A stretch of 64,000 bases of DNA from Fidelibacterota bacterium (lineage in GTDB: Bacteria > Fidelibacterota > JAANXI01). How positions within the stretch are numbered: the stretch's first letter is position 1; each line of letters starts with the position of its first letter. The notes beneath the pieces are model-generated. The model was given only the letters and a program-made list of their open reading frames with translations, did no database searches and had not been told where the DNA came from. The position numbers and the translations under genes are program-made. This document shows positions 17,646 to 53,148 of this stretch, in pieces. The stretch lies in NCBI GenBank assembly GCA_021734025.1, contig JAIPJS010000005.1, positions 2,112-66,111 of the forward strand, written 5' to 3'.

Positions 17646-17687
17646 TGCTTATTCGTTCTATGTAAAAATTGAGTGGTTATCATTGGA

Positions 17688-17875
17688 AGTATTGCGTACT
17701 GCGTATTGCGTATTCGTAATCATTCGCACCTTGCTTTGAATGACCCTTTCAGGGGTCTGCGACCCCTGAAAGGGTCATTTTTACTTGTCTCCGTTGGTCC
17801 AGCAACCGCCAGTGTTTTTGTTGTGGTAAAAACGACCGACGGGAATTCTTTTACGCAATACGTAATACGCACTAT
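17688..17875. repeat. MITE-like element with imperfect terminal inverted repeats and a central perfect 16-bp-stem hairpin, inserted between ABC ATPase and permease genes
   Basis: The left end is agtattgcgtactgcgtattgcgtattcgtaat. The right end is the reverse complement of atagtgcgtattacgtattgcgtaaaagaat. The central palindrome is gaccctttcaggggtc-tgc-gacccctgaaagggtc followed by a T run. Related motifs occur at 19443-19540, 37725-37765 and 48640-48680. Confidence 0.55.
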
Positions 17876-19442: not shown

Positions 19443-19540
19443 AATTATTTGGTCATAAAGAGTATTGCGTATTGCGTATGACGTATAAAATGATACAGGA
19501 GTGAGATTTACGCAATACATCATACGCAATAAAAAAACAA
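19443..19540. repeat. short inverted-repeat element of the TACGCAATACGCA family immediately upstream of the tetR operon
   Basis: agtattgcgtattgcgtatgacgta ... tacgcaatacatcatacgcaata. It shares motifs with the 17.7 kb element. Confidence 0.5.
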
Positions 19541-23734: not shown

Positions 23735-24262
23735 ATTTTATCTACCGGCATTCTTTCTTCTTTTGCCTTGATACAAAAGTGGAGAAAAAATCAAGGCTGC
23801 CAAATTAATTTCGGTATCGGCAGCAACGCCCTCCTTACCAGAACCAGAAACTCGTCCGGCAACTGCCGGACTCAAACAGCTGGTTCTGGCTTCACGTCGG
23901 ACGTTGGCCGACAGAGCGAAATTAATTTGAAGGCCGAAACTCAAAAGCAAAGAGATTCGTTTTTCGGTCTCGCCATTCCTTAAGTACGAACGACTGGTGC
24001 GATGAGGACAGGATAATTCGGCTGTCTGACGGAGTGGAGCGACGGAGTTCCGAATTATCCCCGAATCGCAGCGTAGTTGTTCTAGAAAGGAATGGCATAA
24101 CCGGATTTTTGCAGCACTTTTTCTAAAAAAGTGCGGAAGAAAAAGAAAGTTTATCTTTCGACATAGGTTAGTATTTATCAAAAACATTTACCTATTGTAC
24201 CAGTCACATCAATTTGTTTGTATTCCCCTTTTGCCTTGATATAAAAGTGGAGGTCGGAGTAA
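23735..24262. repeat. modular structured repeat, locus A (about 1.5 units, forward orientation)
   Basis: Contains the modules hairpin(CTTGAT loop)-AAAAAATCAAGGCTGCCA, cggtatcggca, the ccagaaccagaa...cagctggttctgg hairpin, gaaattaatttgaaggcc, ttttcggtctcgcca, and gatgaggacaggataat. A second unit then starts with the ggatttttgcagcactttttctaaaaaagtgcgga hairpin and ends in a second CTTGAT hairpin at 24225-24253. Confidence 0.7.
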
Positions 24263-24376
24263 TACCAAACATTTTATGAGGAAAAAAGAACCACGATGGT
24301 CGACCAATTCCGAAATGATTTATTGTGATAAACTTTTCTCCTTTGACAATCTCAGTCGCTGCGGTAGGTTTGCACT

Positions 24377-26104
24377 ATGCCTCTTCCAAATCTCACACTC
24401 ACGAATTTTACCGGGGAAGTATCGTCAACTATCGTTGATAGAGGGCAGGACTATTTTTATCGCGATCTGGTAACTTCGCTTGAGGAATCGCTGGATGGTC
24501 AGTGGGTGGCGCAGGTCAGGGGTACCGCAACATATACCGTCGAAATATCACTTTCCAATGATGTGGTGGCGTCCTGGGCGTGCACCTGTCCTTATGATTA
24601 TGGACCAGTGTGCAAGCACGTGGTTGCAGTATTGATGGAGTTGAAGGAGGGGAAATCTGCGAAAGCCGATCCGGAGCAGAAAAAGCGGTCTACCAGAAAA
24701 TCACCGGAAAGGCGGTTTGATTCACTGGTCGACGACCTGCCGGTGGACGCGCTCCGGAAATTCCTCCGCGATTACGCGCAGTTTCATCCGGAGATGGAAC
24801 GGGAATTCCTGGCAAAATTTACCACTGCGGACGTCCCCGACGCCTGGCGGGATTACGTCGCCGTGATCCGGGAATCGGCGCGGGCAGGCTCCGACCGCCA
24901 TGGATTTATTAAATATTCGAACAGCTTCCGGGTTATGCAGCCGATCCATACGATGATTCAGCAGGCATACGAAAAATTGGAGTCCGCGGAATATCACGCC
25001 GCCTGGCACATCGCCCGCGCCGTAGTGCAGGAAGTGCCGAAACTCATCCAGCGGATGGATGATTCCAGTGGTGACGGCGGTTTTGTGACGAACAACGCCC
25101 TGGAGATCCTCCGGGAAGCCGGCACTGCCACCGAAGATGATGACTTACAGTCGGAGATTTTTCAGTTTTTGCTGAAAGAGTATCCAAAACAGCAGTATTC
25201 CGATTTTGGATTTGATGAGACTATCCTGTCTGTCCTGACAGCACTGATCAGGAATCCCCGGCAGGCTAAGCAGGTGGAGCGGCTCATCAAAGCACAGCTG
25301 GAAGCGGCGGAAAATGCGGAAGATGACTTTGGCTTCGATTACCGGTTTCAGCGAGCGCTGAAACATCAGATCGAATTCCTGGAGCAGACCGGCCGGGAGG
25401 ACGAAGCCGCCGATATTATCGATGCGCATCTGGACATCGAGGAGTTCCGGGAGCGGCGGATTCAGGAAGCATTTGATCAAGAGGATTTCGACACGGCAAA
25501 ATCACTGGTACGGGATGGGATTAAACTTATACGGGAGCAAAAGTATCCGCCTGGATACGAATATCGCTGGGAACAGTGGCTGTTCCGGATTGCCAAAGCG
25601 GAAGAGGACACGGAGAACATTCGTCAATATGCACGGTTCTTTTTCCTCCATCGACGGCAGGATATCTCCTGGTATAAGGAGCTCAGATCGACCTATACCG
25701 ATCAGGAATGGCGCCCAATTCTGGCGGATCTGATTGAGGAGATCCGTTCGAAATCATACTTCCCGGCCCGGGCGCTGGCGGAGGTCTATGCGTATGAACA
25801 TCACTGGGATGATTTGCTGCAATTGTTATCGGAGAACCCGGACCTTTCTCTGCTGAAGGAGTACGGCACTTATCTCAGGGAAGATTTTCCCGAAGACCTC
25901 CTCGCAATATACGGGGAGACCCTGCGCGCCTTTGCGGCGGAGTATACGGGGCGCAAGTATTACCGGGAGATTGTCAGGACGCTGAACAACATCCGGGACA
26001 TCTCCGGTGGCGCCGATTTCGTGCGGAACCTGGTGGCGGAATTCCGGGAAACCTATAATCGCCGCCCGGCGATGCAGGAGGAATTGGATAAGGTAAAGGC
26101 ATAG
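24377..26104 (+). CDS. SWIM zinc-finger domain protein
   Basis: WACTCPYDYGPVCKHVVAVL is the CxC...CxH SWIM signature. The remaining 500 aa is helical-repeat-like. Confidence 0.65.
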   Translation: MPLPNLTLTNFTGEVSSTIVDRGQDYFYRDLVTSLEESLDGQWVAQVRGTATYTVEISLSNDVVASWACTCPYDYGPVCKHVVAVLMELKEGKSAKADPEQKKRSTRKSPERRFDSLVDDLPVDALRKFLRDYAQFHPEMEREFLAKFTTADVPDAWRDYVAVIRESARAGSDRHGFIKYSNSFRVMQPIHTMIQQAYEKLESAEYHAAWHIARAVVQEVPKLIQRMDDSSGDGGFVTNNALEILREAGTATEDDDLQSEIFQFLLKEYPKQQYSDFGFDETILSVLTALIRNPRQAKQVERLIKAQLEAAENAEDDFGFDYRFQRALKHQIEFLEQTGREDEAADIIDAHLDIEEFRERRIQEAFDQEDFDTAKSLVRDGIKLIREQKYPPGYEYRWEQWLFRIAKAEEDTENIRQYARFFFLHRRQDISWYKELRSTYTDQEWRPILADLIEEIRSKSYFPARALAEVYAYEHHWDDLLQLLSENPDLSLLKEYGTYLREDFPEDLLAIYGETLRAFAAEYTGRKYYREIVRTLNNIRDISGGADFVRNLVAEFRETYNRRPAMQEELDKVKA

Positions 26105-26354
26105 TGAGCCGGCCTACGTCATTGTGACCCTGCCAGGGTCTTTCGTCATCAATTCCTTTGCTCACCACAGCATTGCCCAAATTAAACCCAAGAATACAAG
26201 CAAATTGCCAAAGCAAGTTTTTTACGGCATCTGAAATCGTATTGTAGAACTTCTGCCGCGATGTCGGCAGGGAGAATCAGCTGTTTGACCGAGTGAAACG
26301 AGGGAGTTCTGATTCTCCCAGACGAGCGGTGTAGCAGTTCTTAATAGGATTTCA

Positions 26355-26786
26355 GCAGCCGGATTTTTGCAGCACTTTTTCTAAAAAAGTGCGGAGAAAA
26401 AGAAATTTATCTTCCGATACAGGTTCGGATTTATAAAAAAGGTTAATCTGTTGTACGGTTATGCAATCACATTAATTTAGTTTTAAGCATCCCCGTTTTG
26501 TCTTGATACAAAACGGGGTAAAAAATCAAGGCTGCCACTACAATTTCGGTATCGGCACCCATTCCCTCCGGGCCAGAACCAGAACTCCCTGCGGTCAGAC
26601 AGCTGGTTCTGGCTGTCCTATGGTCATGGGCCGATAGAGCAAAATTGTAGTGGAGGCCGGAGTAAAAAACAACGGTGGCCAAAATTGAAAACGATGCCAA
26701 AACTAAAAAGTGAAGAGAAGCGTTGGTTTTATCGGTCTCGCCACTCCTTTGGTACGAACTACTGGTGCGATGAGGACAGGATAATA
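26355..26786. repeat. modular structured repeat, locus B (one complete unit, forward orientation)
   Basis: Module order is the gcagcac hairpin, then gttgtac..cacatc, the CTTGAT hairpin at 26491-26518 (perfect 11-bp stem), aaaaaatcaaggctgccac, the ccagaaccagaact..cagctggttctgg hairpin, caaaattgtagtggaggccgg, and gatgaggacaggataat. Confidence 0.7.
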
Positions 26787-27296
26787 TTAATGGCTCCAAT
26801 TCTTTTTAAGATTTTCAAACGCATGCAGCAGTTTTTCATTTCTGCGATAGTATAAATTGTGTTCGAAGACCTGTTCTAACTTTACAATGGCTTCATCTGT
26901 CGTTAGGGTGTTTTCCATTACCATCCGATCAAAAGCCCACAACAACCCATGTGTCTTTATCTTGTGCTTTCTTCCCATTTTACGCAAAACGCCATCGCTG
27001 GTTAGCAGCAATGCACTTTCCTTTTTAGCAAGAAACCAAACTGAGCGGTCGGCAATCGAAAGGGACATGGACAGGTTGAAGGGATCCGTTTCGTCAATAA
27101 AGTTCTCTTCGATTTCAACAATAGTGAGTTTTTCTTTTTCTACCCATGTGGATAAAAATTCACGTTGGTCTTGATCTAACTCCATCCACACCTGATATGA
27201 GGTAATAATATTATGGGGTAATTGGAAAAAGGCATTACAAGCATCGCACAGCAGCAAATCGATAAATATCGAAGCATCTGTGACGGCTAATTTCAT
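26787..27296 (-). CDS. DUF4411-like PIN-fold protein, the usual partner of an ImmA/IrrE metallopeptidase
   Basis: MKLAVTDASIFIDLL... N-terminus. It has a 1-nt gap or overlap with the upstream HTH-ImmA gene. The pairing is recognised from gene context. Confidence 0.5.
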   Translation of the reverse strand: MKLAVTDASIFIDLLLCDACNAFFQLPHNIITSYQVWMELDQDQREFLSTWVEKEKLTIVEIEENFIDETDPFNLSMSLSIADRSVWFLAKKESALLLTSDGVLRKMGRKHKIKTHGLLWAFDRMVMENTLTTDEAIVKLEQVFEHNLYYRRNEKLLHAFENLKKNWSH

Positions 27297-28352
27297 CTAT
27301 CCCAGGAGGAAGTTGTGACGGAATTCGTTTATCGGCTGATTCTTCAGTGCTGCGGCCTTCGAAATAGAGATATACTCCTCTGCCAGCGCCTGGCCGATTA
27401 ACTGATCGAATCGGAGAGCCTGTTCCTCTCCGGTGTATTCTGCCAGATCGGACTCATCCTGTCTCAGGTTATTGCTGTTGATAAATTTGTAAAAATCCCG
27501 GTAAGCCCCTTCACTCATAATCTCCAATTCCTTCAGCCGGGTCGCGATGGCTTGTATCGAGATCCCGTACTGTCGTTTCAGTGAAGCAAGTTCCTGTAAA
27601 GAAACTTTCTTCCGCTTTAAACCGAGTTCTGCTTCAACTGCCCGCTTATCCAGCAGCATCGCACCGGCAAAATGATGGCAAAGACTTTCCTGCTTCCGGT
27701 GATTCATGTGGTTAATATTCAAAAGGAGATGTCCGAGCTCGTGCATCGCATTGAACCGGTAGCGGTCAAGTGAACCTTTTTTCTCTTTATTCAGAACGAT
27801 AACCGGGACAGAGTTGTTAATCCAGGAAGAAAAACCATCGATCGAATCGTCGCCACTCAATTCGATTATTTTGATACCCCGATCTTCCAGCAATTCCAGA
27901 ACATTGTAGAGGGGATCGATGCCGAGATTCCATTGATCCCTCAATTGCTGCGCTGCGTTTTCGACATCCTTTTTATTGGTAATATTTTGTTCTTGTAGTG
28001 GATTTTTTACATGTGGCTGGGTACCGAGAATTTTTTCCAGCTCAAGATAGCGTTCCAGGAAATCACGTGCGGTTTCCACAATTCGGTTCTGTTCTTTTTT
28101 CTGGAGCCTTGACAGTTTTCTAAACGAAATCTCCTCGATTTCTACCGCATGATCCCGATAAAAGTAATCCGGTTTCAAATCCAAAGCATCTGCGATGTTT
28201 TGGATCATCACGTTGCCCGGTACGACCTGCCCTTTTTCATACTTGTGCAGCGCCTGCCTGCTGATTCTATTGTCGAGACGATCAGACAAGTCCTGCAACG
28301 AAAATCCCCGCATAAGACGCGCATGTTTTAAACGCTGTGCAAGTTGTGGCAT
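27297..28352 (-). CDS. XRE-family HTH fused to ImmA/IrrE (COG2856) zinc metallopeptidase domain
   Basis: N-terminal HTH (LKHARLMRGFSLQDLSDRLDNRISRQALHKYEKG). HEXXH motif HELGHLLLN within a DUF955-like region. Confidence 0.75.
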   Translation of the reverse strand: MPQLAQRLKHARLMRGFSLQDLSDRLDNRISRQALHKYEKGQVVPGNVMIQNIADALDLKPDYFYRDHAVEIEEISFRKLSRLQKKEQNRIVETARDFLERYLELEKILGTQPHVKNPLQEQNITNKKDVENAAQQLRDQWNLGIDPLYNVLELLEDRGIKIIELSGDDSIDGFSSWINNSVPVIVLNKEKKGSLDRYRFNAMHELGHLLLNINHMNHRKQESLCHHFAGAMLLDKRAVEAELGLKRKKVSLQELASLKRQYGISIQAIATRLKELEIMSEGAYRDFYKFINSNNLRQDESDLAEYTGEEQALRFDQLIGQALAEEYISISKAAALKNQPINEFRHNFLLG

Positions 28353-28438
28353 TTTTACCTCCCAATCTTGTTGACAAGATAGATTAGTAATAGTAGTTTG
28401 TCAACCAAAGAAAGAACAATGTAAGGAGGTGATTAACC

Positions 28439-28612
28439 ATGGCGACAAATGGCAAGTCCGGCGATAACCGTCGGCATGGTGCCGTTCGCAACCGCTCCCA
28501 GATTAAAAATCCGGTAAACGGCTTGTACATTAAACGCAACAGAAAAACCGGCCGGTTTATGGACGTGAAAACCAGCGGTGGCAGATTTAAAGGCGTCCGC
28601 CGGGAGAAGTGA
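28439..28612 (+). CDS. small highly basic protein (57 aa), divergent from the XRE/ImmA gene
   Basis: Near-consensus RBS AAGGAGGTGA 7 nt upstream of the ATG. MATNGKSGDNRRHGAVRNRSQIKNPVNGLYIKRNRKTGRFMDVKTSGGRFKGVRREK. It is not in the ORF track because it is under 60 aa. Confidence 0.4.
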   Translation: MATNGKSGDNRRHGAVRNRSQIKNPVNGLYIKRNRKTGRFMDVKTSGGRFKGVRREK

Positions 28613-28689
28613 GCGATGCGAGTCAAAAAGACCTTGACAGGTGTCCGGGACCCTGCCAGGGTCTATCGGCATCAATCATTCCAATTTGA

Positions 28690-29465
28690 CTTTATTCCCC
28701 CTTTTGCCTTGATGCAAAAGGGGGCGAAAAAATCAAGGCTGCCACTACAATTTCGGTATCGGCACCCATTCCCTCCGGGCCAGAACCAGAACTCGGTCAT
28801 TGCATTCTCTCAAACAGATAATACTGGCTTTACGTCGGACGTTGGCCGACAGAGCGAAATTAATTTGAAGGCCAAGTTCCAAAAGCACGAGAGTCGGTTT
28901 TTCGGTCTCGCCATGCTTGAGCCCCAGTTCCGGCGTCTACCTTTCGACAAGCTCAGCTCCGGAAGGAGCCTCTTCCGAGGGATGACGCCTCTAGGAGTCA
29001 CTCTGAGCCTGTCGAAGAGTGGCAAACTCTTTGTCTATCGAATGTGAGGAATTTCCCAAATTGGAGTGAAAGATAAATTCATGAATTATTCAGGTTAGGT
29101 TTTCATAAAAACGTTTATCGATTGTATCGGGAAGCAATTATATCAATTTGACTTTATTACCCGTTTTGTCTTGATACAAAACGGGTAGAAAAAATCAAGG
29201 CTGCCACGACAATTTCGGTATCGGCACCCATTCCCTCCGGGCCAGAACCAGAACTCCCTTCGGTCAGACAGCTGGTTCTGACGATCCTCCAGTCATGGGC
29301 CGATAAAGCAAAATTGTAGTGGAGGCCGGATGAACAAAACAGTATACAATCTGAAAAATATCAGTAGTACACAAAATTGAAAGCGAGGCCAATACCTTAA
29401 AGCAAAGGGAATAATACTGTAGTTTATCTGTTGTACTTCAGTCACATCTTGGTAATATTACACCC
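28690..29465. repeat. modular structured repeat, locus C (two partial units, forward orientation)
   Basis: CTTGAT hairpins at 28696-28724 (stem cccccttttgc/gcaaaaggggg) and 29160-29185 (stem cccgttttgt/acaaaacggg). Each is followed by aaaaaatcaaggctgccac..cggtatcggcacccattccctccgggccagaaccagaact. The locus ends with ctgtagtttatctgttgtacttcagtcacatc. Confidence 0.7.
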
Positions 29466-29529: not shown

Positions 29530-29952
29530 ATGACCGACGTTCACGAGCCGGAAGTCCGCAGTTACAATATGAGCCGGATTCGGGGTAAGGATACTAAACC
29601 CGAAATGCTGGTTCGGAAGTTTTTGCATTCCTACGGTTTTCGTTACCGGTTACACGTGAACAATTTGCCTGGAAAACCGGATCTGGTTTTACCAAAATAT
29701 AACACCGCGATATTTGTTCACGGCTGCTTCTGGCATGCGCACGAAGGATGTGAGTACTTCAAAATTCCGCAAACCCGAACGGAATTTTGGAAAGAAAAAT
29801 TATTCGGTAACAGAGAAAGGGACGAGGAAAACATTTCTGAACTCCGGAAAATGGAGTGGAACGTTATCGTGGTTTGGGAGTGTGAGTTAAAATCAGAGGA
29901 AAAGGAAGTGAAACTTCAGGAAATTGCAAATAAGGTTGAAGAAAATAAATGA
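29530..29952 (+). CDS. vsr: very-short-patch repair endonuclease
   Basis: MSRIRGKDTKPE...FVHGCFWHAH.GC...TEFW..K...N..RD...L...GW.V..VWECE are classic Vsr motifs. Confidence 0.85.
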   Translation: MTDVHEPEVRSYNMSRIRGKDTKPEMLVRKFLHSYGFRYRLHVNNLPGKPDLVLPKYNTAIFVHGCFWHAHEGCEYFKIPQTRTEFWKEKLFGNRERDEENISELRKMEWNVIVVWECELKSEEKEVKLQEIANKVEENK

Positions 29953-30386
29953 GCATACCTGTTATTGACATTTTTGCCGGCCCTGGAGGCTTAGGAGAAG
30001 GATTTAGTTCCGTTATGAATGAAGAGGGAGAACGGTTTTTTAATACAGTCCTCTCTATTGAAATGGATGAGTATGCTCACGAAACGTTAGAGTTACGAAG
30101 TTTTTTCCGCCAGTTTGCGCCCGGCAAGGCTCCTGAAGAGTATTACAAGTTTTTACGGCAGGAAATCGATAAAGAAGAATTATTTAAGTCTTGGCCTGAG
30201 CAGGAAGAAAAAGCAAAAAATGAAGCTTGGAATATCAAGCTTGGATTTGATGAAAGTTCAGTAACCCCAGATGAAGTCGATCGAAGGATAAGGGTTGCAT
30301 TAAACAATGAAAAAAAATGGGTTTTGATCGGTGGCCCTCGTTGCCAAGAAAAGCCTATGCCGACTCTCAATGGCCAAAATCTGTGA
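29949..30386 (+). pseudogene. remnant of a DNA (cytosine-5)-methyltransferase (motifs I-IV only)
   Basis: Motif I FAGPGGLGEGF. Motif IV is degenerate (GGPRCQ instead of GGPPCQ) and is followed by unrelated residues, with a stop after 145 aa. No downstream frame continues an MTase. It overlaps the vsr stop (ATGA). The intact paralogous dcm starts 450 bp further on. Confidence 0.6.
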
Positions 30387-30835
30387 TTTTGTTCCTATTG
30401 AGTTATCGGTAAAACTCGCTACACTCAGAAAATCTTTAAAAAGTTATTAGTTCTGAGTCTGATTTTTATTATCATATTAAGGAGACTTTCGAAGGGTTTT
30501 CTCAAATAATTGTATCGATCAAAATTCGAATTGTGCCCAGTGGTGATGAAATTTGTCGCTGGATCGATGATAACCTGAATTCGGCAAAGATTCCAAGAGA
30601 AGTAATACTCGAGGATATAGGTGATGGACTCAATTCCTTTGGCGTACACTTTAAAAACTATGACCCCAAAGCCAGGTTCGCCGATAAAGAAAAAGTGAAG
30701 AGGTTGTCGAGGTTGGTGTAGGAGGGATGATGAGAAACCATATACTATCCTGAAAATTCTTATTTTATAAATGACTAAGTTTGTTCATTTTAGAGAAAGT
30801 TAAACAACTAATTTATTTCAGAATAGCTTAAATTA

Positions 30836-32041
30836 ATGAAATACATAGATTTATTTGCGGGTGCCGGCGGTCTTTCTGAAGGTTTTTACAGGGAAGGATT
30901 TGAAGCTGTGGCTCATATTGAAAAAGATCACCATGCTTGCCAGACTATTAAAACCCGGACTGCCTTTCATTATTTAAAGCAGGAAAATCATATCTCTGAA
31001 TATATTCGTTATCTGAACCAAGAAATAACAAGAGAAGAATTCTATGATTTAATACCTGATGAAATACTTGATACGGTAATTGACGCTGAAATATCGGAAG
31101 AGACCTTAGAAGACCTTTTCAATTTAATTGACCAGAAGCTTGAGGATGAAGAACTTGATTTAATAATTGGTGGCCCTCCTTGCCAGGCATACTCTAGTGC
31201 CTCCGCTTATATTGAAGAAAAAAACGAAAAATTAATTTATTTATATGAATTATATGGTGAATTCCTTGATCACTTTACTCCAAAGATGTTCATCTTTGAA
31301 AATGTACCTGGAATTTATACGGCAGATGAAGGAAAATATTATGAAGGGCTGAAAGAATGCTTTAAAAATGCGGGCTATGAATTTGAAGATAAAAAATTGG
31401 ATGCTTCTGAATTTAACGTACCACAGAAGAGAGAACGGGTAATCATAATTGGTTGGAGAGAAAACTTAGATTTATCATATCCTGAATTTGAAAAGAAAAT
31501 ACCCGATACAAAGATTGACGAATTATTTAATGATTTACCAGACCTTGAACCAGGCAAGTCTTACGATCCGGGAAATCACTACACACAAGGAGGATCTGAG
31601 TATGTTAATACCTATATCCGAAACGGAATAGATGTATTGACACACCACATTGCCCGCCCTCATAATGAAAGAGATTTGAATATTTACAGAATGGCTATAG
31701 AAAGATGGGAAGGAGGTGCGAGGTTAAAGAATTCAGATATTCCTGAAGAGATGAGAACTCAAAAAAATATCTCATCTTTTTTGGATCGTTTTAAAGTAGT
31801 TGATGGTGAAGGTTTTTCTCATACTATGATAGCTCATATCGCCAAAGATGGTCATTACTACATTCATCCGGATCAGAAGCAATTACGCTCTATTTCAGTT
31901 AGGGAAGCGGCCAGAATTCAGTCTTTTCCAGACGATTACTTTTTTGAAGGACCTCGAACTTCTGTATTTACTCAAATTGGCAATGCTGTGCCACCAATTC
32001 TTGCACAAGAAATAGCACGCAAAATAAAAAGGGTCCTTTGA
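30836..32041 (+). CDS. dcm: DNA (cytosine-5)-methyltransferase
   Basis: Motif I DLFAGAGGLSEGF, motif IV GGPPCQAYSSAS, motif VI ENVPG, and motif X QIGNAVPPILAQ. Confidence 0.85.
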   Translation: MKYIDLFAGAGGLSEGFYREGFEAVAHIEKDHHACQTIKTRTAFHYLKQENHISEYIRYLNQEITREEFYDLIPDEILDTVIDAEISEETLEDLFNLIDQKLEDEELDLIIGGPPCQAYSSASAYIEEKNEKLIYLYELYGEFLDHFTPKMFIFENVPGIYTADEGKYYEGLKECFKNAGYEFEDKKLDASEFNVPQKRERVIIIGWRENLDLSYPEFEKKIPDTKIDELFNDLPDLEPGKSYDPGNHYTQGGSEYVNTYIRNGIDVLTHHIARPHNERDLNIYRMAIERWEGGARLKNSDIPEEMRTQKNISSFLDRFKVVDGEGFSHTMIAHIAKDGHYYIHPDQKQLRSISVREAARIQSFPDDYFFEGPRTSVFTQIGNAVPPILAQEIARKIKRVL

Positions 32042-34401
32042 TGACTAATTATAAAGAGATATCAACTTATTCTTTTACTCCAGGGGCAATGTCAATTATT
32101 CAGATGGGCGAAGAACTCATTGGGCAACCCAATACTGCTATTAATGAATTAGTAAAAAACGCCTATGATGCCGACGCAAAGAATTGCGAAGTTTATTTTC
32201 ACAGTGCTGAATCAAAAGAATCATCCTTTACTCTAATTTTTGATGATGGAAATGGGATGGATGAGTCTATTCTATTTGGTGATTGGCTTAAGCCTTCTGT
32301 AAGTGATAAACGAAAGGAGGGGGTTAAAAGTCCTGTATATGGAAGAAATTTATTGGGTAGTAAAGGAATTGGCAGACTTGCTTCTATGGCCCTGGGCAGG
32401 CTTGTTACTGTTATTTCAAGACAAAATCCTTCGGATGATTATAACTGGATAACAGTAGACAGGGAATTATTTAAGGAGGAAGCTTTACTTAAGGATATCA
32501 AATTTCCAGGCTCAAGCATTGAGAACTACCTAGATTTATTTAGAGATGAGGAGTTACTAGAAATTAGAAACTCTTATGAAAATGATGAGCTTTTTGAGGT
32601 TCTGAAAAAAAATGACCTTGATCATTTTGAGAAAGGCACATTAATATTGATTGAGGAGTTTGATGAAGCGGTAGTTAAAATTCTCAGGAAAGATTTTCTC
32701 GAAAGTAACGAGAAATTAAATGAGCACTCTCTGAAGAGTACCAATTTCTATAAGTCTTTAGCCACACTTATTACTCCGATAACTTTAAGTTCGGAAATCC
32801 AGGATGAATTATTAGAAAGAGAAATAATTGATGCGAAGAAAATCATTGCATCAAAAGATGATTCATTTGAAATAAGTTTTGGAATCAATTTGCTCCCTGA
32901 TCAGGAAAAATCTGAAATAGAATGGCAGGATATAGACCCAATTCCAATACTTGATGTTTTTGATTACAGGGTCTTTGGTAAAGTTACTGGCGAAGGTGAT
33001 GTTGATGGATATCTTGGCTTCAACAGACTTGAAAAAGATGGCCATGAAATAACTTTTTCAATTTCTCGGAATGAAATTAAAGATAAAAGCTTACGCGGTA
33101 AGGATCAGCCGACATTATTTGATAATGAAAGTGATTCTGAAAATGAAATGGAGACAGGCGAATATTACTTTGACTTCCGAGTATATGATATGGGAGAATC
33201 TGATAATCGGGCAAAACTATCTGAAAAAGCTGGGTTCGAAAATATAAATACCTTTAGAAGTACTTTTAAAGAATTTCAAGGGCTTAGGGTTTCAAAAAAT
33301 GGATTTGGTGTAAAGCCATATGGGGAAGAGGTCGAAGACTGGATAGGTTTATCTAAAGCGAGAGTTCAGAATCCAGGTCAAAATGTTAATACCAATCAGA
33401 TTATTGGTTATGTCTTTTTCTATTCCCCGGAAAATGATCAGATTGAAGAAAAGACTAACAGAGAAGGTTTTCTTGAAAACACAGCTTTCATTCAGGTTAA
33501 GGAAACTTTAAAAGTTATTTTCAAAAACCTAGGACGTAAAAGGTATAACTATCGATTAAAGCATGGTCTTGGCAGGGTGCCTTCCAGTAAACATAAAAGA
33601 CCTAACATAGATAAGTTTCTAAAGTCTATTGAATCCAGTAAAAATGTAGATCAGGCCAGAAAAAAATCAGAAAAATTTGTCAAAGAGATTACGACTTCTT
33701 TGGATAATTTAGAAGAGGCATTAACATTTTCAGAACGATTAGCATCTCTTGGTAGCGGAATAGAACTGGTGTATCATGAGATGGTACAGCCTATTTCAAC
33801 TTTGAGAACTACGAAATCTTCCTTAGATCTAAAGAAAGAGAAAATTGCTGAGGCGGTTAAAGAGATCTTCCTCAACGATATAAATTCATTGAATAGTGCA
33901 ACTGATGTATTAGCAGAGTTAAGAAATTCTCTTCAACCTGCAATAGGGAGAACAAGAACTAAAAAATTCAAACCTGTTGATACCTTTTTGCGGGTATGCA
34001 CCTTATTTAAAACGGATTTTGAGGATGCAGAAATTAGTATAAATCTTATTGGAGAAACTGAAAATTTTACTCTGAAAGATTATGAATACCCCTTCTGGAT
34101 AGCTTTCCTGAATATTTTAAATAATGCCGTTTATTGGATAAAAAGGTCGGAGGAACCAGGAACTATTTATTTTCAAATAGACAATGGAAACATAATAGTA
34201 GGTAATACAGGACCGCTTATATCAGAAGATATTATAGAAGATATTTTTGAATATGGTGTCACAACCAGAAAAGAGAAAAATGCAACCGGATTAGGCCTTT
34301 CTTACACGCAAAGTATTCTCAGTAAAAATGATTGGGACATAACAGCTGAGAATCGAAAAAATGGACCGGTATTTATAATAAAAAAGCAAGAAAGTGAATA
34401 A
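32038..34401 (+). CDS. fusion protein: N-terminal MORC/Hsp90/MutL-like GHKL ATPase domain, about 380 aa of unknown middle region, C-terminal histidine-kinase core (HisKA H-box plus HATPase_c)
   Basis: N-terminal N-box ELVKNAYDADA, G1 FDDGNGM, G2 GSKGIGRLAS. C-terminal H-box ELVYHEMVQPISTL, N-box FLNILNNAVYW, G1 QIDNGN, F IFEYGVT, G2 GLGLSYTQSIL. The start overlaps the dcm stop (ATGA). Confidence 0.6.
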   Translation: MMTNYKEISTYSFTPGAMSIIQMGEELIGQPNTAINELVKNAYDADAKNCEVYFHSAESKESSFTLIFDDGNGMDESILFGDWLKPSVSDKRKEGVKSPVYGRNLLGSKGIGRLASMALGRLVTVISRQNPSDDYNWITVDRELFKEEALLKDIKFPGSSIENYLDLFRDEELLEIRNSYENDELFEVLKKNDLDHFEKGTLILIEEFDEAVVKILRKDFLESNEKLNEHSLKSTNFYKSLATLITPITLSSEIQDELLEREIIDAKKIIASKDDSFEISFGINLLPDQEKSEIEWQDIDPIPILDVFDYRVFGKVTGEGDVDGYLGFNRLEKDGHEITFSISRNEIKDKSLRGKDQPTLFDNESDSENEMETGEYYFDFRVYDMGESDNRAKLSEKAGFENINTFRSTFKEFQGLRVSKNGFGVKPYGEEVEDWIGLSKARVQNPGQNVNTNQIIGYVFFYSPENDQIEEKTNREGFLENTAFIQVKETLKVIFKNLGRKRYNYRLKHGLGRVPSSKHKRPNIDKFLKSIESSKNVDQARKKSEKFVKEITTSLDNLEEALTFSERLASLGSGIELVYHEMVQPISTLRTTKSSLDLKKEKIAEAVKEIFLNDINSLNSATDVLAELRNSLQPAIGRTRTKKFKPVDTFLRVCTLFKTDFEDAEISINLIGETENFTLKDYEYPFWIAFLNILNNAVYWIKRSEEPGTIYFQIDNGNIIVGNTGPLISEDIIEDIFEYGVTTRKEKNATGLGLSYTQSILSKNDWDITAENRKNGPVFIIKKQESE

Positions 34402-35521
34402 TTTGGGTACAATAATTCATTTAGACAACGATGAAAAAATTCTTCAAGATTTTAAAGGGCTATTCGATCAGTCCGGTATTAATCTTGATTTAGTCACTTG
34501 CCAAACAAAAGATGAATTTTATAAGCTTATTGAAGAGCATAAAAATTCTCTAAAGGCATTGGTCTTTGACTTATTAAGTTCTGAGCCCGGTAAAGAAGAA
34601 CTACACAAAGGTGATGCAGAATTTCTGGACTCTGTAGAGGATAGTTTTTCTACGGTTAGTATTCCTATTTTCATTTACAGCGGGTTTTTAGAAGCTATTG
34701 AGGAACAATTTGAAACCCATGGAACTGTGTTTAAAATTGATAAAGCAAATGGGCCAGACGAAATACTCAGGCTGATCAAGCTTTTTGATGAATCTGGATT
34801 TTTAGACGTATTTAGCCCGGGTGGAAAAATTGAAAAAGATTTTCATAATGAATTAAATAAATCTTTTATATCTCAATTCACAAATAACAAGCAAATAGAA
34901 GAAATAATTAACACTGTTGCTGAAGAGGATGTCAAAGAATCTAAAGAAAGGGTTGAAAAGGTCTTTAAGAGAATTGCCTTAAGGTCACTTTTAACCGTGC
35001 TTCAGTTATCAGAAAATGAAGGAGATGAGGAATACCTTAATCCGGTTGAGCACTATGTGAAAAGAATTAATGATCAAAAGATTGTAACTGGAGATATCTT
35101 TTTTAGCCAAGAAAAAAACGAGCATTTATTAGTAATGACACCCAGATGTGACCTTGCTAATAAAGATCCTCAAGAAATTTTAGTATGTAATATTGATACA
35201 GAAAAATTTCCAGATAAGACGACAAGTAACACTCAGAAAGGTAAAATTCTTAATGCTATTACTGATAATCCTGAATATTCAGGTTATGACAGATACTTAG
35301 TTAGGTCCCCTTTTTTTGTTGGCGGCTTAATAAAAATTGGATCTTATTCAATGATAGCAAAGGAAGAATTACTGTCTAGTTACGATCTTCAGATAACATT
35401 AAGTGATGAACTTACAAATGAAATACTGGGTAAATTTGGATCTTATTTTTTCCGTACTGGAATTACAACATGGGATCTTGACGAAACTGTAAAATTCATA
35501 GAGTCGATAAAGGAAGATTAA
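34394..35521 (+). CDS. receiver (REC) domain protein with about 250-aa C-terminal domain of unknown function
   Basis: GTG start overlapping the kinase stop. IIHLDNDE (beta1 acidic pair), ALVFDLL (putative phospho-acceptor Asp near residue 59), IPIFIYSG (Ser/Thr position), and VFKIDK (Lys position) match a CheY-like spacing. I recognised nothing in the C-terminal region. Confidence 0.5.
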   Translation: MNNLGTIIHLDNDEKILQDFKGLFDQSGINLDLVTCQTKDEFYKLIEEHKNSLKALVFDLLSSEPGKEELHKGDAEFLDSVEDSFSTVSIPIFIYSGFLEAIEEQFETHGTVFKIDKANGPDEILRLIKLFDESGFLDVFSPGGKIEKDFHNELNKSFISQFTNNKQIEEIINTVAEEDVKESKERVEKVFKRIALRSLLTVLQLSENEGDEEYLNPVEHYVKRINDQKIVTGDIFFSQEKNEHLLVMTPRCDLANKDPQEILVCNIDTEKFPDKTTSNTQKGKILNAITDNPEYSGYDRYLVRSPFFVGGLIKIGSYSMIAKEELLSSYDLQITLSDELTNEILGKFGSYFFRTGITTWDLDETVKFIESIKED

Positions 35522-35523
35522 AA

Positions 35524-37459: not shown

Positions 37460-38092
37460 AACGCGGTTAAGATAGTATATGCCGGGGTTGGTTCAAAAGG
37501 TAAAAAACCGTGAGATGTGAGACGTGAGATGTGAAACGAAAATCAGTCAGCAGTAGGCAAAAATACACAACCGGGGGAATGACAGGCGGCTTCAGGAATT
37601 CGTGATAATTATTGGAAAAAAGGAATAGGGATTACGGAATAAGGAAAAAAGAACGCCCCTTTGGGGCTGGATGAAAAACCATGCGTACCCATCAATGGGC
37701 ACATTCGTCAATTGCATAAGACAAATGACCCTTTCAGGGCCATTCGACCTCTGAAAAGGTCTTTATGTAACATTTTCAATCGTTCGTATGAATACTACCG
37801 TCACCGACGCTGTTAGCGATCGGCGACGGGATCATTTTTTTCCGAATTCCATATTTTACGTTGAATTCCAACAAATATGTCAACCCCGTGGGAGTCAGAC
37901 TAGAGAGCTCGGGAAAATTTTGCATGCATTTTTTTATCTCCCACGTAATTCGTGTATAGTCACGGATAGGTTTTTCAGTTGTTATCTGTGTAATCAACTG
38001 ACAGTTATTTCTTCGTGTCTTTGAGCCTTCGCGGCAAATTTTTTCGGTTTTCTTTGGCTCTTTTTTCTTAGCTCTTGGTTCTTTCGGTTTAG

Positions 38093-40959: not shown

Positions 40960-41745
40960 ACTTTTGGCCAGCCCCAAAAGTACCAAAAAAGGCCTGCCTC
41001 CAAGAGATCCTTACGGGAGAAACTCAGAACTCGCACTGCTCTTTTGATGGATGGTCTTTCATAATACTATTTGGAACTCGAATTTGATATATCGCCATCA
41101 ATTTGGGTGCTCAAACACTGAGTTTCCGGGTTAAATGCAAAGAACCCGGTACCCAGCGGCCTTGCTATTCATTTTGGGCACCGCTTCAACGAGTGGAGGC
41201 AAACAGAACCAGACTGTCCGAGTCCGGCGGCAGCCGGACGAGTTTCTGGTTCTGTTCCGGAACGAGTTGCTAAGCGGTCAAAATGGATAGCACCGCCTTG
41301 ATTTTTTTACATCCTTTTGTATCAAGACAAAAGGATGAAAGAACAAAGCTGTTGTTCACTCATCATGCAAGCCTCAAAGATATTCCCACGGGAGAAACTC
41401 AGAACTCTCCCGTACATCTTTATGACAAGCTATTCACCACCAAGGCAATCTCGTCTTTTGTAAATATATAGGAAATACCAGGTTCCTTACACAAGAGTGA
41501 GTAATAATTCTACTTACATTGCCCGTTTTTTCTTGATAAAAAAACGGGCAGAAAAAATCAAGGAAGCTCAGAACTCGCACCCGTATGTCGAAAATTGGTC
41601 TTTCACAAATACCTTGTAATATTAGTAAATAATAATTGTTTTCTGTCGGGGTGCTCAAACACTGAGTTTCCGGGTGAAACAAAAACACCGCTTGTATATG
41701 GCCTTGCAATTAATTTTTAGGCCCTTTTAGCGTGCAAATGTTCCA
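40960..41745. repeat. modular structured repeat, locus D (mostly reverse-complement orientation plus one forward hairpin unit)
   Basis: 41105-41340 gggtgctcaaacactgagtttccggg...ggccttgctattcattttgggcaccgcttcaacgag...cagaaccagactgtccgagtccggcggcagccggacgagtttctggttctg...caccgccttgattttttt...ccttttgtatcaagacaaaagg is the reverse complement of the locus A-C modules. A forward hairpin lies at 41520-41575 (cccgtttttttcttgataaaaaaacggg..aaaaaatcaagg). gggtgctcaaacactgagtttccgggtg recurs at 41650. Confidence 0.7.
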
Positions 41746-41807
41746 CACAAGCGCATCAAGGCAAAAGGGCACTTACATAAAAAAATCACAAAGGTGAAGT
41801 CAAAGCA

Positions 41808-45299: not shown

Positions 45300-46515
45300 G
45301 TTTTTCTTTAATTTGGCAGCCTGATTTTTTTCATCTTTTAGTGTGCACACGCTTCCGCCGGTGCGTAGCGGGTTTGTAGAAATGCATTAAAATAATTAGC
45401 CTGAATTATTCATAAACTCGTGGACTTGTGATAAAAAATATCGCGCTTAGTTGTTCAGAATCAACGATTTGTAGAGACACGCCATGGCGTGTCTCTACCC
45501 ACGAATATTTTGGCAGCGGAGTACTGCCCATTCATACCATACATCCGGTCAGTACTTCAATGCACAATTCCGAAGATCTTTTTATGAATAATACAGGTTA
45601 GAAAAGAATAATCGCACTATTGAATACCCGTTTTTTCTTGATATCCCATAGGGATCCCTTCCGGGGAAAAACGGGTAGCCTCGTAGAGATCCCTACTGGA
45701 GAAACTCAGAACTCGCACTTGTTATATCAATGATGTCCTTTCATAAGAATATTTGGAATTCATGTTTGGCTTATCGCCCTCAACTCGGGTGCTCAGACAC
45801 TGAGTTTCCGTTTTAAAAGCAAAGAGTCCGGTTCCCAACGGCCTCGCTATTTATTTTGGGCACCGTTGCGATGAGTGACGGATAGCCAGAACCGGCTGTC
45901 TGAAGGAGCGCAGCGACTGAGTTCCGGTTCTGGCCCGGAGCGAATTGTGAAACGGTCAAAATGGATAGCACCGCCTTAATTTTTTACATCCTTTAGTGTC
46001 CAGGTATTAATGTCCAAGTATTCCATACAAGCCCGCACAAGCGTATCAAGACAAAATGAAAGAAAATTAAATCTGTGCCTCACTTAATATTGAGTGACGC
46101 TCCACGGCAAGGTGGCCTCAACCTGATCTCAGCGAAAAAAATAAGAACACTGGTTGAATGTCCCCTTTTTCCTTGATGAAAAAGGGGACAGAAAAAATCA
46201 AGAAAACTTCGAGCTCACGCCTCCGTAATTAATGGCTTTCCCATTTATGATGACGGTGATCAAAATCAATGCTCAGGTAGATATTTCTAGGGGCGTTCAG
46301 ACAGCGAAGTTTTCGAAAACGTCAAAGCAGTTTATTATTGGCCTTGCTATTCATTTTGGGTACCGCTTCGACGAGTAGAGGCAAACAGAACCAGACTGTC
46401 TGAGTCCGGCGGCAGCCGGACGAGTTTCTGGTTCTGTTCCGGAACGAGTCGCTAAGCGGTCAAAATGGAAAGCACCGCCTTGATTTTTTCACCTGTTTTG
46501 TATCAACACAAAACT
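45300..46515. repeat. modular structured repeat, locus E (1.2 kb non-coding; several units, both orientations)
   Basis: 45305-45345 is a ggcagcctgattttttt fragment. 45625-45680 is a forward CTTGAT-type hairpin with an insertion. 45780-45995 is a reverse unit. 46155-46200 is a forward hairpin (gtcccctttttccttgatgaaaaaggggac..aaaaaatcaag). 46290-46510 is a reverse unit nearly identical to 41165-41340. Confidence 0.7.
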
Positions 46516-49889: not shown

Positions 49890-49902
49890 AAAAACCTCAA
49901 AA

Positions 49903-49977
49903 GTGTTAGTGTGTTATGGTGTTCATGTGTTCAAGTTAAAAAAGCGTGTTAATGTGTTACCGTACCGTGTTATAGTT
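49903..49977. repeat. GTGTTANN period-8 tandem array (hemB upstream region)
   Basis: gtgttagt gtgttatg gtgttcat gtgttcaa ... gtgttaat gtgttacc ... gtgttata. Confidence 0.55.
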
Positions 49978-53109: not shown

Positions 53110-53148
53110 TTTATTATCCTAACCTCGACTTTGTGCTCCGGTTTTTAA

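What the first reader, a model, noticed from the sequence alone, without database searches (positions are those of the whole stretch)
23735..29465. Family of modular 250-600 bp structured repeats with compensatory base changes in a hairpin (conserved CTTGAT loop)
At least nine hairpins have the form stem-CTTGAT-stem. The stem sequence differs between copies (ccccgttttgt, cccccttttgc, cccgttttgt, cccgtttttttc, gtcccctttttc, catccttttgt) while always remaining self-complementary. The loop and the following AAAAAATCAAGG(CTGCCAC) are invariant. A second hairpin (CCAGAACCAGAA...CAGCTGGTTCTGG) and a third (GCAGCACTTTTT-CTAA-AAAAAGTGCGG) are equally conserved. Covariation that preserves pairing is the hallmark of a functional RNA, or of a protein-recognised DNA hairpin such as a REP/RAYT or IS200/IS605-type end. 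The units occur in five loci within 64 kb, in both orientations, always intergenic. Candidate identities are a multicopy large ncRNA, a MITE, or the end of a non-autonomous element.
Basis: seen in the sequence. Interest (0 to 1): 0.75.

Follow-up and report, generated by a model that had tools for sequence, protein, structure and literature searches.

The report
Rod-shaped hairpin repeat family in Marinimicrobia
The window holds a previously undescribed family of intergenic repeats built from 135-base rod-like hairpins, paired head-to-head and capped by small hairpins, whose base pairing is kept by many compensatory changes; it most resembles the REP/REPIN/BIME/ERIC kind of bacterial palindromic repeat, not a known RNA gene.

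Summary

It is a rod-like imperfect hairpin of about 135 nt (P1-P2-P3, with conserved tip CCAGAACCAG..CUGGUUCUGG).
- A covariance model finds 9 rods in the window and 12 more in six unrelated metagenome or MAG contigs.
- Over these 21 rods, 92.7% of cells pair and 35 of 42 pairs show double-sided changes (0/500 shuffles).
- On that strand every rod is followed by a T-run and then a cap hairpin.
- Rods sit head-to-head in doublets of 370-440 bp.

There is no Rfam match, no plasmid or phage match, and no transposase or integrase nearby. Copies are mosaic, truncated and non-syntenic.

Best reading: a lineage-restricted extragenic palindromic repeat family that works like REPIN/BIME/ERIC elements. 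When transcribed, its doublets would probably act as two-way terminators. Mobility and RNA function are both unproven.

Verdict: new variant of a known kind, moderate interest.

The parts
23756..23783 (+). Cap hairpin HP1 (stem-CTTGAT-stem), followed by AAAAAATCAAGG; outer cap of doublet 1
23793..23936 (-). Rod A1 (P1-P2-P3); favoured strand is -
   Evidence: CM R1 118.4 bits; MFE -72.4 on this strand vs -65.0 on the other
23965..24104 (+). Rod D1, same family in inverted orientation, head-to-head with A1 (28-nt spacer)
   Evidence: CM R1 75.7 bits; RNA MFE -66 vs -56.5 kcal/mol, z -7.2
24105..24136 (+). T-run ATTTTT plus cap hairpin E (GCAGCACTTTTTCTAAAAAAGTGCGG)
24224..24251 (+). Solo HP1. 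This is a rod-deletion derivative; the junction lies at a GTGGAG microhomology.
   Evidence: Sequence comparison with the rod end ..GTAGTGGAGGCCGGAGTAA
26225..26362 (+). Rod D2
   Evidence: CM R1 59.5 bits
26363..26394 (+). T-run plus cap hairpin E
26491..26518 (+). HP1 followed by AAAAAATCAAGG
26528..26659 (-). Rod A2
   Evidence: CM R1 127 bits; RNA MFE -72 vs -62.6 kcal/mol, z -8.2
26733..26785 (+). 5' half of a D rod, truncated where the PIN-like/ImmA gene cassette begins
   Evidence: 84% identical to 23945-24017 (family D13)
28697..28724 (+). HP1
28735..28874 (-). Rod A3. It is chimeric: one arm is A2/A4-like and the other A1-like. Its P3 is broken.
   Evidence: CM R1 80 bits; only 25 of 42 Watson-Crick pairs
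29159..29186 (+). HP1
29197..29328 (-). Rod A4
   Evidence: CM R1 122.5 bits
40957..40984 (.). Cap hairpin GGTACTTTTGG..CCAAAAGTACC flanked by T6 and A6; outer cap of the B2|A5 doublet
41014..41132 (.). Rod B2, a second rod family (GAAACTCAGAACTCGCAC..GTGCTCAAACACTGAGTTTC), head-to-head with A5
   Evidence: (D9, D12, D15)
41157..41299 (+). Rod A5
   Evidence: CM R1 132 bits; RNA MFE -74.8 vs -66.4 kcal/mol, z -8.1
41310..41337 (-). HP1 capping A5
41521..41676 (+). HP1 + AAAAAATCAAGG + rod B1 (a unit with the same cap but a different rod family)
   Evidence: (D11)
41700..41770 (-). Expanded HP1 followed by a collapsed A rod (AAAAATTAATTGCAAGGCC); deletion at an A-run microhomology
45625..45680 (-). 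HP1-type cap in inverse orientation, with a 24-nt inserted module; outer cap of the A7|B3 doublet
45696..45814 (.). Rod B3
45839..45977 (+). Rod A7
   Evidence: CM R1 142.1 bits; MFE -61.5 vs -43.9
45987..46058 (-). Expanded HP1 capping A7
46161..46332 (+). HP1 + AAAAAATCAAG + rod C, a third rod family (AAAACTTCGAGCTCACGCC..GGCGTTCAGACAGCGAAGTTTT)
   Evidence: (D11)
46339..46481 (+). Rod A6, head-to-head with rod C
   Evidence: CM R1 129.1 bits
46491..46518 (-). HP1 (loop GTTGAT) capping A6, directly after the hemL stop codon
45314..45345 (-). Fragment: end of a cap hairpin + AAAAAAATCAGGCTGCCAAATTAA (start of an A1-type rod, truncated)

Best explanation
This is a lineage-restricted family of extragenic palindromic repeats. 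It works like the REP/REPIN/BIME and ERIC class of elements. It is not a member of any described family.

**Anatomy.**
- The basic unit is a rod-like imperfect hairpin of about 135 nt. It has a GGC/GCC base, a 2x2 internal loop, a 14-bp P1, a 3-nt bulge, P2, two 2-bp steps, and an 11-13-bp P3 with the conserved tip CCAGAACCAG-CUGUCUGA..GAGUU-CUGGUUCUGG.
- One specific strand folds better.
- On that strand the rod is followed by a T5-7 run and then a small cap hairpin (HP1 with loop CTTGAT/ATCAAG, hairpin E, or similar).
- Two such units lie head-to-head, 24-37 nt apart. Together they form a quasi-palindromic doublet of 370-440 bp: cap - rod - rod - cap.
- The A/D rods are one family. B and C rods are alternative partners that use the same cap.

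**Shown.** The anatomy, the strand preference, and the maintenance of pairing by many compensatory and G.U-tolerant changes. Also shown are dispersal to non-syntenic sites in at least seven assemblies, and decay by deletion at microhomologies, chimerism and truncation.

**Inferred.**
1. Selection acts on a single-stranded hairpin state.
2. The family spreads or is maintained as non-autonomous repeat DNA, by a hairpin-dependent process whose enzyme is encoded elsewhere. A Y1/HUH RAYT-type transposase is the best precedent.
3. When transcribed from either side, RNA polymerase reads through the first rod, which has A-runs on that strand. It stops at the U-run after the second rod, which is then in its well-folding orientation. 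A doublet would therefore act as a two-way intrinsic terminator or insulator and as a 3'-end protecting structure.

**My split.** About 0.8 that it is a dispersed palindromic repeat family of this general kind. About 0.35-0.4 that terminator or insulator activity is its main effect. About 0.35 that a RAYT/IS200-like ssDNA enzyme moves it.
For: **Repeats and modules.**

**Rod structure.**
- All 12 intact A copies give the same MFE architecture.
- On an unfitted MAFFT alignment, 90.7% of cells pair against 75.1% in shuffles. Twenty-five of 42 pairs show double-sided changes (0/500 shuffles). Slid controls pair at 31-53%.
- CM R1 finds 21 full-length rods in the window plus L021, L025, L027, L036, L039 and L040, and none in L028-L035.
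- On these 21 rods, 92.7% of cells pair and 35 of 42 pairs show double-sided changes. None of 500 shuffles reached the observed value on any of the five measures.

**Strand preference.**
- G.U 47 vs A.C 14, binomial p = 3e-5; 20 vs 4 on the first alignment.
- RNA MFE is 8-18 kcal/mol better on the favoured strand, z about -8 against -5 to -6.
- The same direction holds with DNA parameters, but the difference is smaller.

**T-run and cap.** Every one of the 21 rods is followed by a T-run on the favoured strand (mean 6.2 T in 12 nt) and then a cap hairpin.

**Doublets.** Head-to-head doublets are seen in the window, L027, L036 and L040.

**Repeat-like behaviour.**
- Chimeric A3, truncated D rods, solo HP1 and a collapsed rod.
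- Subfamilies are shared between genomes at 83-84% identity, yet in different gene contexts.
- Short-read assemblies break at the repeats.

**Precedent.** Compensatory changes are common in REPIN hairpins (PMC3116915). REPs are hypothesised to act in termination and mRNA stabilisation (PMC3733652 abstract).
Against: - **No enzyme found.** No transposase, RAYT or integrase was found in 64 kb plus 13 kb of flanks, or on the related contigs.
- **No signs of insertion.** No target-site duplication or clean empty site was found. The closest syntenic relatives (63-67% amino-acid identity; L028-L030) simply lack the repeats.
- **Conservation pattern.** The conserved part is the tip, not the ends. This is the reverse of the MITE and REPIN pattern.
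- **Age of copies.** Copies are 65-85% identical, so no recent burst is visible.
- **Unusual terminator shape.** A 135-nt rod with an internal loop 3 bp from its base is an unusual intrinsic terminator.
- **A doublet with nothing to terminate.** One doublet (23.75-24.14 kb) lies between two divergent gene starts.
- **RNA may be favoured.** The strand asymmetry is larger with RNA than with DNA energies. This leans towards an RNA-level constraint rather than an ssDNA one.
- **No expression data.**
Confidence: 0.5

Rival explanations
1. Host-selected cis-acting RNA modules that are not mobile. Rods plus a U-run would be unusually long unidirectional intrinsic terminators or insulators, or RNA-stability elements. 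They would be duplicated locally and kept by selection on RNA structure.
For: - G.U tolerance on one strand.
- The strand asymmetry is larger with RNA parameters than with DNA parameters.
- A U-run follows all 21 rods.
- Cap hairpins always have the non-terminating polarity, as if accidental termination were avoided (sequences).
- Internal loops are conserved.
Against: - Contexts differ between genomes, and one doublet lies between divergent gene starts.
- Genes next to the repeats already carry their own compact terminators (GACCCTGCCAGGGTC at 26126 and 28649).
- Orientation relative to flanking genes differs between the window and L027.
- There are many truncated or chimeric copies.
Confidence: 0.2
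2. Multicopy small RNA genes. Each rod, with or without its cap hairpin, would be an independently transcribed 140-190-nt structured RNA ending at the U-run. It would work with a protein that recognises the conserved tip.
For: - Strong covariation, a conserved tip and a terminator-like 3' end on the favoured strand.
- Subfamilies are conserved across genomes.
Against: - No conserved promoter-like motif was found.
- The 5' ends of paired rods are only 24-37 nt apart, so two divergent promoters would have to lie inside the opposite rod.
- No Rfam family matches.
- No conserved neighbouring protein gene was found.
Confidence: 0.1
3. Single-stranded-DNA recombination or transposition sites of a specific known type. 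Either integron attC-like sites flanking gene cassettes, or ends or derivatives (PATEs) of an IS200/IS605 element that targets TTGAT, as ISDra2 does.
For: - Folding is strand-specific.
- Cluster 1 has a cassette-like layout, with defence-type genes between repeats.
- TTGAT lies immediately 3' of A, B and C rods and in the HP1 loop. TTGAT is the ISDra2 target/TAM (PMC2806898, PMC8612924).
- A gene cassette abuts a truncated rod at 26785.
Against: - No RYYYAAC/GTTRRRY boxes are present.
- Rods occur in both orientations side by side.
- No IntI, TnpA or TnpB was found.
- D rods with E caps have GGATTTTT instead of TTGAT.
- Cluster 2 lies among syntenic housekeeping genes: hemL, PCMT and the 827-aa protein.
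Confidence: 0.1

Closest known systems
REPINs / REP sequences with RAYT transposases (Bertels & Rainey 2011, PMC3116915)
   Same: - Extragenic and multicopy.
- The replicative or selected unit is a long hairpin made of inverted halves.
- Compensatory changes keep the hairpin.
- Higher-order clusters occur.
- Singlets and remnants arise by decay.
- The form is proposed to be ssDNA or mRNA.
   Different: - The units here are 135-nt rods paired into 370-440-bp doublets, not two REPs of 20-40 nt.
- The tip is conserved rather than the ends.
- There is no GTAG/CGTC tag.
- No RAYT was found in the sequence available.
- The phylum is different (Marinimicrobia).
BIMEs (bacterial interspersed mosaic elements of E. 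coli; from my own knowledge: Gilson, Bachellier, Hofnung and colleagues)
   Same: A mosaic of palindromic units in alternating orientation, joined by a small set of conserved linker motifs. Located in intergenic regions.
   Different: The palindromic units are about four times longer and unrelated in sequence. Binding of IHF, gyrase or Pol I is unknown here.
ERIC/IRU (127-bp) and other bacterial MITE-like repeats such as RU-1/2/3, Correia and RUP (reviews PMC3184786, PMC10969869)
   Same: - Imperfect palindromes of about 100-170 bp that fold into rod-like RNA hairpins.
- Variants carry insertions at fixed internal sites.
- Found in transcribed intergenic DNA.
- Orientation-dependent effects on transcripts have been reported for ERIC in Yersinia (my own knowledge: De Gregorio et al. 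2005).
   Different: - No terminal inverted repeats with target duplication were identified.
- The doublet-plus-cap architecture is different.
- There is no sequence similarity (no plasmid or phage hit).
- Divergence between copies is much greater, with covariation.
Intrinsic (factor-independent) terminators
   Same: A GC-closed hairpin is immediately followed by UUGAUUUUUU or GGAUUUUU on the favoured strand of all 21 rods.
   Different: - The stem is 10 times longer than usual and has an internal loop near the base.
- A second hairpin of non-terminating polarity follows.
- Activity has not been tested.
Integron attC sites
   Same: A strand-specific folded hairpin of about 60-140 nt with bulges. 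Gene cassettes lie between copies in cluster 1.
   Different: - No R''/R' consensus.
- Both orientations are adjacent.
- No integrase.
- In attC sites the base is conserved and the tip varies; here it is the reverse.

Membership tests
Any curated RNA family (Rfam 15) | A match to a family covariance model at or near its gathering score | tested here: not met
   A gathering-threshold scan of the whole window gave only Acido-Lenti-1 at 39881-39926. E-value scans of both clusters gave only chance-level hits.
REPIN / REP-RAYT | The unit is two inverted REP palindromes (20-40 nt each) that form one hairpin | tested here: not met
   The unit is a 135-nt rod. Rods pair into doublets with a 24-37-nt spacer.
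REPIN / REP-RAYT | A conserved GTAG or CGTC tag at one end of the palindrome (PMC3733652) | tested here: not met
   Rod ends are (C/T)GGCC...GGC(A/C)GCC. No such tag appears in alignments A4 or A8.
REPIN / REP-RAYT | A single-copy RAYT (Y1 transposase) gene flanked by the repeats | tested here: inconclusive
   None is among the window ORFs or on L021 and L027. The rest of the 438-kb contig and of the genome could not be read.
REPIN / REP-RAYT | The hairpin is kept by compensatory changes | tested here: met
   precedent
MITE | Terminal inverted repeats, target-site duplication, and a parent IS | tested here: not met
   The outer caps are inverted only as structures. No direct repeats flank the doublets (sequences). 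No IS was found.
Integron attC | R'' RYYYAAC / R' GTTRRRY boxes, a uniform orientation within an array, and IntI nearby | tested here: not met
   No such boxes appear in A4 or A8. A and D rods are inverted neighbours. No integrase was found.
IS200/IS605-derived PATE | Subterminal hairpins at both ends on one strand, insertion 3' of a fixed tetra- or pentanucleotide, and TnpA (Y1) | tested here: inconclusive
   TTGAT precedes the T-run and HP1 in A, B and C units, but not in D/E units. TTGAT is the ISDra2 target. No TnpA or TnpB was found locally.
Intrinsic terminator | A stable GC-closed hairpin directly followed by a U-tract, with termination shown | tested here: inconclusive
   The hairpin and U-tract are met on the favoured strand in 21 of 21 rods. 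The generic scanner does not call them because the loop limit is exceeded. Activity cannot be tested here.
BIME | A mosaic of E. coli PU (Y/Z) units with defined linker motifs | tested here: not met
   The architecture is analogous, but the units are unrelated in length and sequence. This is an analogy only.

The most novel reading that the evidence does not exclude
The rods would be a new class of structured nucleic-acid element with a dedicated trans-acting partner that recognises the invariant tip (CCAGAACCAG-CUGUCUGA..GAGUU-CUGGUUCUGG). Two forms are possible. One is a new hairpin-guided ssDNA mobile system in the FCB superphylum. The other is a multicopy rod RNA family with a regulatory or defence role, clustered next to TA and restriction islands. 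In either form the HP1 loop-to-flank pairing would act as a conformational switch; it is compensated independently in L027 and L040.
Probability: 0.15. Interest if true: 0.75.

Novelty: new variant of a known kind. Interest (0 to 1): 0.5.

Why it matters
Marinimicrobia and their relatives are uncultured, and their non-coding genome is essentially unannotated.

This family fills up to 1.3 kb between housekeeping genes, and it breaks short-read assemblies. It is one of the better-supported structured repeats one can get from so few sequences: 35 of 42 pairs covary.

If it moves through a hairpin-specific enzyme, it extends the REPIN/RAYT type of long-lived intragenomic replicator to a new phylum and to much larger units.

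If the doublets are two-way terminators, they would be a new modular insulator design.

Either way, a covariance model now exists that can annotate these regions and stop them being miscalled as ORFs. Spurious 110-149-aa ORFs do overlap them.

Tried and rejected
- **Rfam.** Searches at gathering and permissive thresholds found nothing.
- **tRNA/tmRNA.** None.
- **Sigma-70 promoter and terminator scan.** Counts were at shuffle level, and no site was conserved across copies. FCB-type -33/-7 motifs were looked for by eye and had inconsistent spacing.
- **Genome contigs pattern scan.** Of 24 loci, 23 were chance matches and only L021 was real.
- **Metagenome contigs pattern scan.** It returned L025 and L027, which are real, and L026, a chance hit in AT-rich coding DNA.
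- **Viral contigs.** 0 hits.
- **Plasmid and phage BLAST.** No match.
- **Syntenic relatives.** Contigs found through the 827-aa protein (L028-L030) carry no repeats, so no empty-versus-filled site comparison was possible.
- **Window flanks.** L031-L035 hold no further copies.
- **Spurious-ORF trick.** Searching the protein database with translations of the repeats gave three new small contigs: L036, L039 and L040.
- **Population variants.** Logan contigs only showed that assemblies break at the repeats.
- **H-type pseudoknot for HP1.** The pairing is supported by two compensated variants. With zero-length connecting loops, though, the fold is sterically strained on either strand, so it is left open and may instead be an alternative helix.
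- **T-run target duplication.** The flanks of rods are not consistent direct repeats.
- **Tn3-like inverted-repeat resemblance of the tip.** GTCTGAC is only a 7-mer and was treated as coincidence.
- **6S RNA and Y RNA.** There is no central bubble and no tRNA-like domain, and Rfam is negative.

Full report
**Source and context.** The window is part of contig JAIPHM010000001.1 (438,851 bp) of GCA_021735205.1, a MAG labelled Candidatus Marinimicrobia.

Cluster 1 of the repeats (23.7-29.5 kb) lies between the following genes:
- an O-methyltransferase gene (-);
- a SWIM-domain gene (+);
- a PIN-like plus HTH/ImmA pair (-);
- a 57-aa ORF;
- a Vsr-Dcm-HATPase-HNH island of low GC content.

Cluster 2 (40.9-41.8 and 45.2-46.5 kb) lies between housekeeping genes on the - strand: hemL, PCMT, an 827-aa conserved protein and a Zn-ribbon protein. 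No tRNA, transposase, integrase or Y1/HUH gene is in the window.

**Checking the observation.**
- There are nine short stem-(C/G)TTGAT-stem hairpins, two expanded ones, and one carrying a 24-nt insert.
- The 17-mer AAAAATCAAGGCTGCCA occurs 4 times exactly against 0.16 expected.
- Self-BLAST and the repeat finder show five intergenic loci sharing modules in both orientations.
- In 14 copies of the CTTGAT hairpin (HP1) from five assemblies, 93.6% of cells pair against 82.1% in shuffles. Seven of 11 stem pairs show double-sided changes (0/500 shuffles).
- A 4-bp U:A block never varies, and it always has U in the 5' arm.

**The real unit is a rod.** The sequence between AAAAAATCAAGGC and ..AAGGCC forms long-range helices. 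P1 and P2 differ completely between copies yet stay complementary.
- All 12 intact copies give the same MFE architecture when folded one by one.
- On a MAFFT alignment that was not fitted to any structure, 90.7% of cells pair (shuffles 75.1 +/- 1.1%, 0/500). Twenty-five of 42 pairs show double-sided changes (shuffles 14.8). Sliding the partners by 1-3 columns drops pairing to 31-53%.
- A covariance model built from that alignment (R1) finds nine full-length rods in the window.
- It also shows that the long hairpin next to each cluster-1 copy, which I had called D, belongs to the same family in inverted orientation.

**Related sequences.** Public data hold few relatives.
- One genome-contig hit is real: L021, a Neomarinimicrobiota MAG from the Suakin Deep brine.
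- Two metagenome contigs are real: L025 and L027.
- Three small ENA contigs were recovered by searching the protein database with translations of the repeats: L036, L039 and L040.
- Viral contigs, plasmids and phages gave nothing.
- Syntenic contigs from the nearest relatives (63-67% amino-acid identity; L028-L030) carry no copies, and neither do the window's own flanks.

With all 21 rods, 92.7% of cells pair and 35 of 42 pairs show double-sided changes. None of 500 shuffles reached the observed value on any of the five measures. This alignment is fitted to the model, so it leans towards the structure. New copies add events in the 'conserved' parts:
- L036 has CCAGAACCGA/TCGGTTCTGG.
- L040 replaces the P3 stem with AAAAATTCCTG/CAGAAATTTTT.

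**Which strand folds.**
- On the opposite strand the 21 rods have 47 G.U and 14 A.C (binomial p = 3e-5, though the copies are not independent).
- RNA MFE is 6-18 kcal/mol better on that strand in 8 of 11 A rods and in 4 of 4 D rods.
- z-scores are about -8 against -5 to -6.
- With DNA parameters the preference has the same sign but is smaller, 1.6-7 kcal/mol.

Because A and D rods are inverted neighbours, their favoured strands are opposite DNA strands.

**Architecture.**
- On its favoured strand every rod is followed by a T-run: GCCTTGATTTTTT for A, B and C rods, and GCCGGATTTTT or CCCTTTT for D rods. This holds for 21 of 21 rods, with a mean of 6.2 T in 12 nt.
- A cap hairpin follows the T-run: HP1, hairpin E, or GGTACTTTTGG..CCAAAAGTACC.
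- Rods lie head-to-head, with their 5' ends 24-37 nt apart. The pairs are A1|D1, A2|truncated D, B2|A5, B3|A7 and C|A6 in the window, and A|D or A|B in L027, L036 and L040.
- A complete element is thus cap - A-run - rod - spacer - rod - T-run - cap. It is 370-440 bp long and quasi-palindromic.
- The hemL-PCMT spacer holds two such doublets in tandem.
- B and C rods are separate sequence families that R1 does not detect. They use the same TTGATTTTTT + HP1 cap.
- All caps have the polarity T-run / U-rich 5' arm ... A-rich 3' arm / A-run. This polarity is not that of a terminator on either strand.

**HP1 loop pairing.** The loop CTTGAT is complementary to the ATCAAG that lies 6-8 nt downstream. 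Two independent variants compensate:
- L027 2322-2362: loop ..TGGCG with CGCC.. downstream.
- L040: loop CTTGAC with GTCAAG downstream.

The pairing therefore matters. A classical pseudoknot would have zero-length connecting loops, though, so an alternative-helix arrangement is equally possible. This remains unexplained.

**Repeat-like behaviour.**
- A3 is a chimera of two subfamilies with a broken tip.
- A D rod is cut at 26785, where a PIN-like/ImmA cassette begins, and only 14 nt of another remain at 28903.
- The solo HP1 at 24224 and the collapsed rod at about 41700 look like deletions between short direct repeats (GTGGAG and an A-run). This is the expected fate of long palindromes.
- Subfamilies are shared between assemblies: A7 is 84% identical to an L027 copy, and A5/A6 are 83% identical to L025. 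They are closer to those copies than to their neighbours in the window, yet they sit in unrelated gene contexts.
- Orientation relative to flanking genes differs between the window and L027.
- One doublet lies between two divergent gene starts.
- Short-read assemblies of the same population end at the repeats.

**Interpretation.** The data establish a structured, strand-specific family of dispersed intergenic repeats under selection for pairing. They do not establish whether the selected state is RNA or ssDNA, nor how copies arise.

Covariation alone does not decide between RNA and DNA, because REPIN hairpins, which are mobile DNA, commonly show compensatory changes (PMC3116915).

I favour a REPIN/BIME/ERIC-like extragenic palindromic repeat. 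The reasons are its dispersal, mosaicism and decay products, its inverted-doublet design, and the lack of promoters.

I infer from the invariable U-run after the well-folding orientation that a transcribed doublet stops RNA polymerase coming from either side at the distal rod. This is consistent with the roles hypothesised for REPs (PMC3733652).

The larger asymmetry under RNA energies keeps a purely RNA-level explanation alive. The rivals are:
- host-selected terminator or insulator modules;
- sRNA genes;
- attC-like sites;
- IS200/IS605-type ssDNA sites, noting that TTGAT is the ISDra2 target.

These are listed with their tests. Membership of every named family fails on at least one defining feature, so this is an analogue of those families, not a member.

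**Verdict.** Its kind is familiar, bacterial palindromic intergenic repeats, so I rate it a new variant of a known kind with moderate interest. The upside depends on finding a dedicated partner enzyme, or on showing terminator or insulator activity.

Noticed in passing
window 39881-39926 (-): Acido-Lenti-1 RNA (RF01687). It scores 49.4 bits against a gathering score of 37 and is the only Rfam hit in the window.
   Followed up: no
window 49900-49970, 52584-52612, 53147-53181, 55791-55825, 60124-60169, 61558-61596; L021 4661-4760: Tandem arrays of an 8-nt period (NNTAACAC / GTGTTANN, 4-5 units) lie in intergenic DNA of the haem-biosynthesis gene run. A 41-nt array is 97.6% identical in the Red Sea MAG, upstream of a GHMP-kinase gene. 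This is a separate short-repeat or operator-like family.
   Followed up: partly
window 17683-17713, 19449-19479, 48644-48674: Runs of the heptamer TGCGTAT (GTATTGCGTATTGCGTAT) in three intergenic regions.
   Followed up: no
window 29530-36228: An island of low GC content (34-37%, against about 50% elsewhere). It holds Vsr, a C5-methylase that appears split (29949-30386 and 30836-32041), a 787-aa HATPase_c_3 protein, a 375-aa unknown protein and an HNH_2 endonuclease. It is probably an acquired restriction or defence island next to repeat cluster 1.
   Followed up: partly
window 26787-28352 (-) and 26733-26785: A PIN-like gene plus an HTH/ImmA-IrrE (Peptidase_M78) gene pair begins exactly where a D rod is truncated. 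This suggests that rods are rearrangement or integration hotspots.
   Followed up: partly
window 45643-45666 (-); L040 about 826-850: A 24-nt module, CCCCGGAAGGGATCCCnnTGGGAT, is inserted in the loops of cap hairpins in two different assemblies.
   Followed up: no
window 28926-29025; L021 7063-7190: Another shared structured module (CTTTCGACAAGCTCAG...CTGAGCCTGTCGAAGAG), about 80% identical between the two genomes. In L021 it lies downstream of thrC.
   Followed up: no
window 26126-26140, 28649-28663, 17739-17779, 37724-37764: Compact GC-rich palindromes (GACCCTGCCAGGGTC; AATGACCCTTTCAGGGGTC..) follow gene ends. They look like the ordinary terminators of this genome and are distinct from the rod family.
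   Followed up: no
window 23738-24187 (-), 26467-26799 (-), 28616-29047 (+): Open reading frames of 110-149 aa run through the repeats. They are artefacts of the repeat sequence. Their translations match only other copies of the repeat.
   Followed up: yes
L037 (1006 bp), L038 (2281 bp): Independent short-read assemblies of the same population end within about 250 nt of the PCMT and SWIM genes, that is, at the repeats. This is consistent with further copies elsewhere in the genome.
   Followed up: partly
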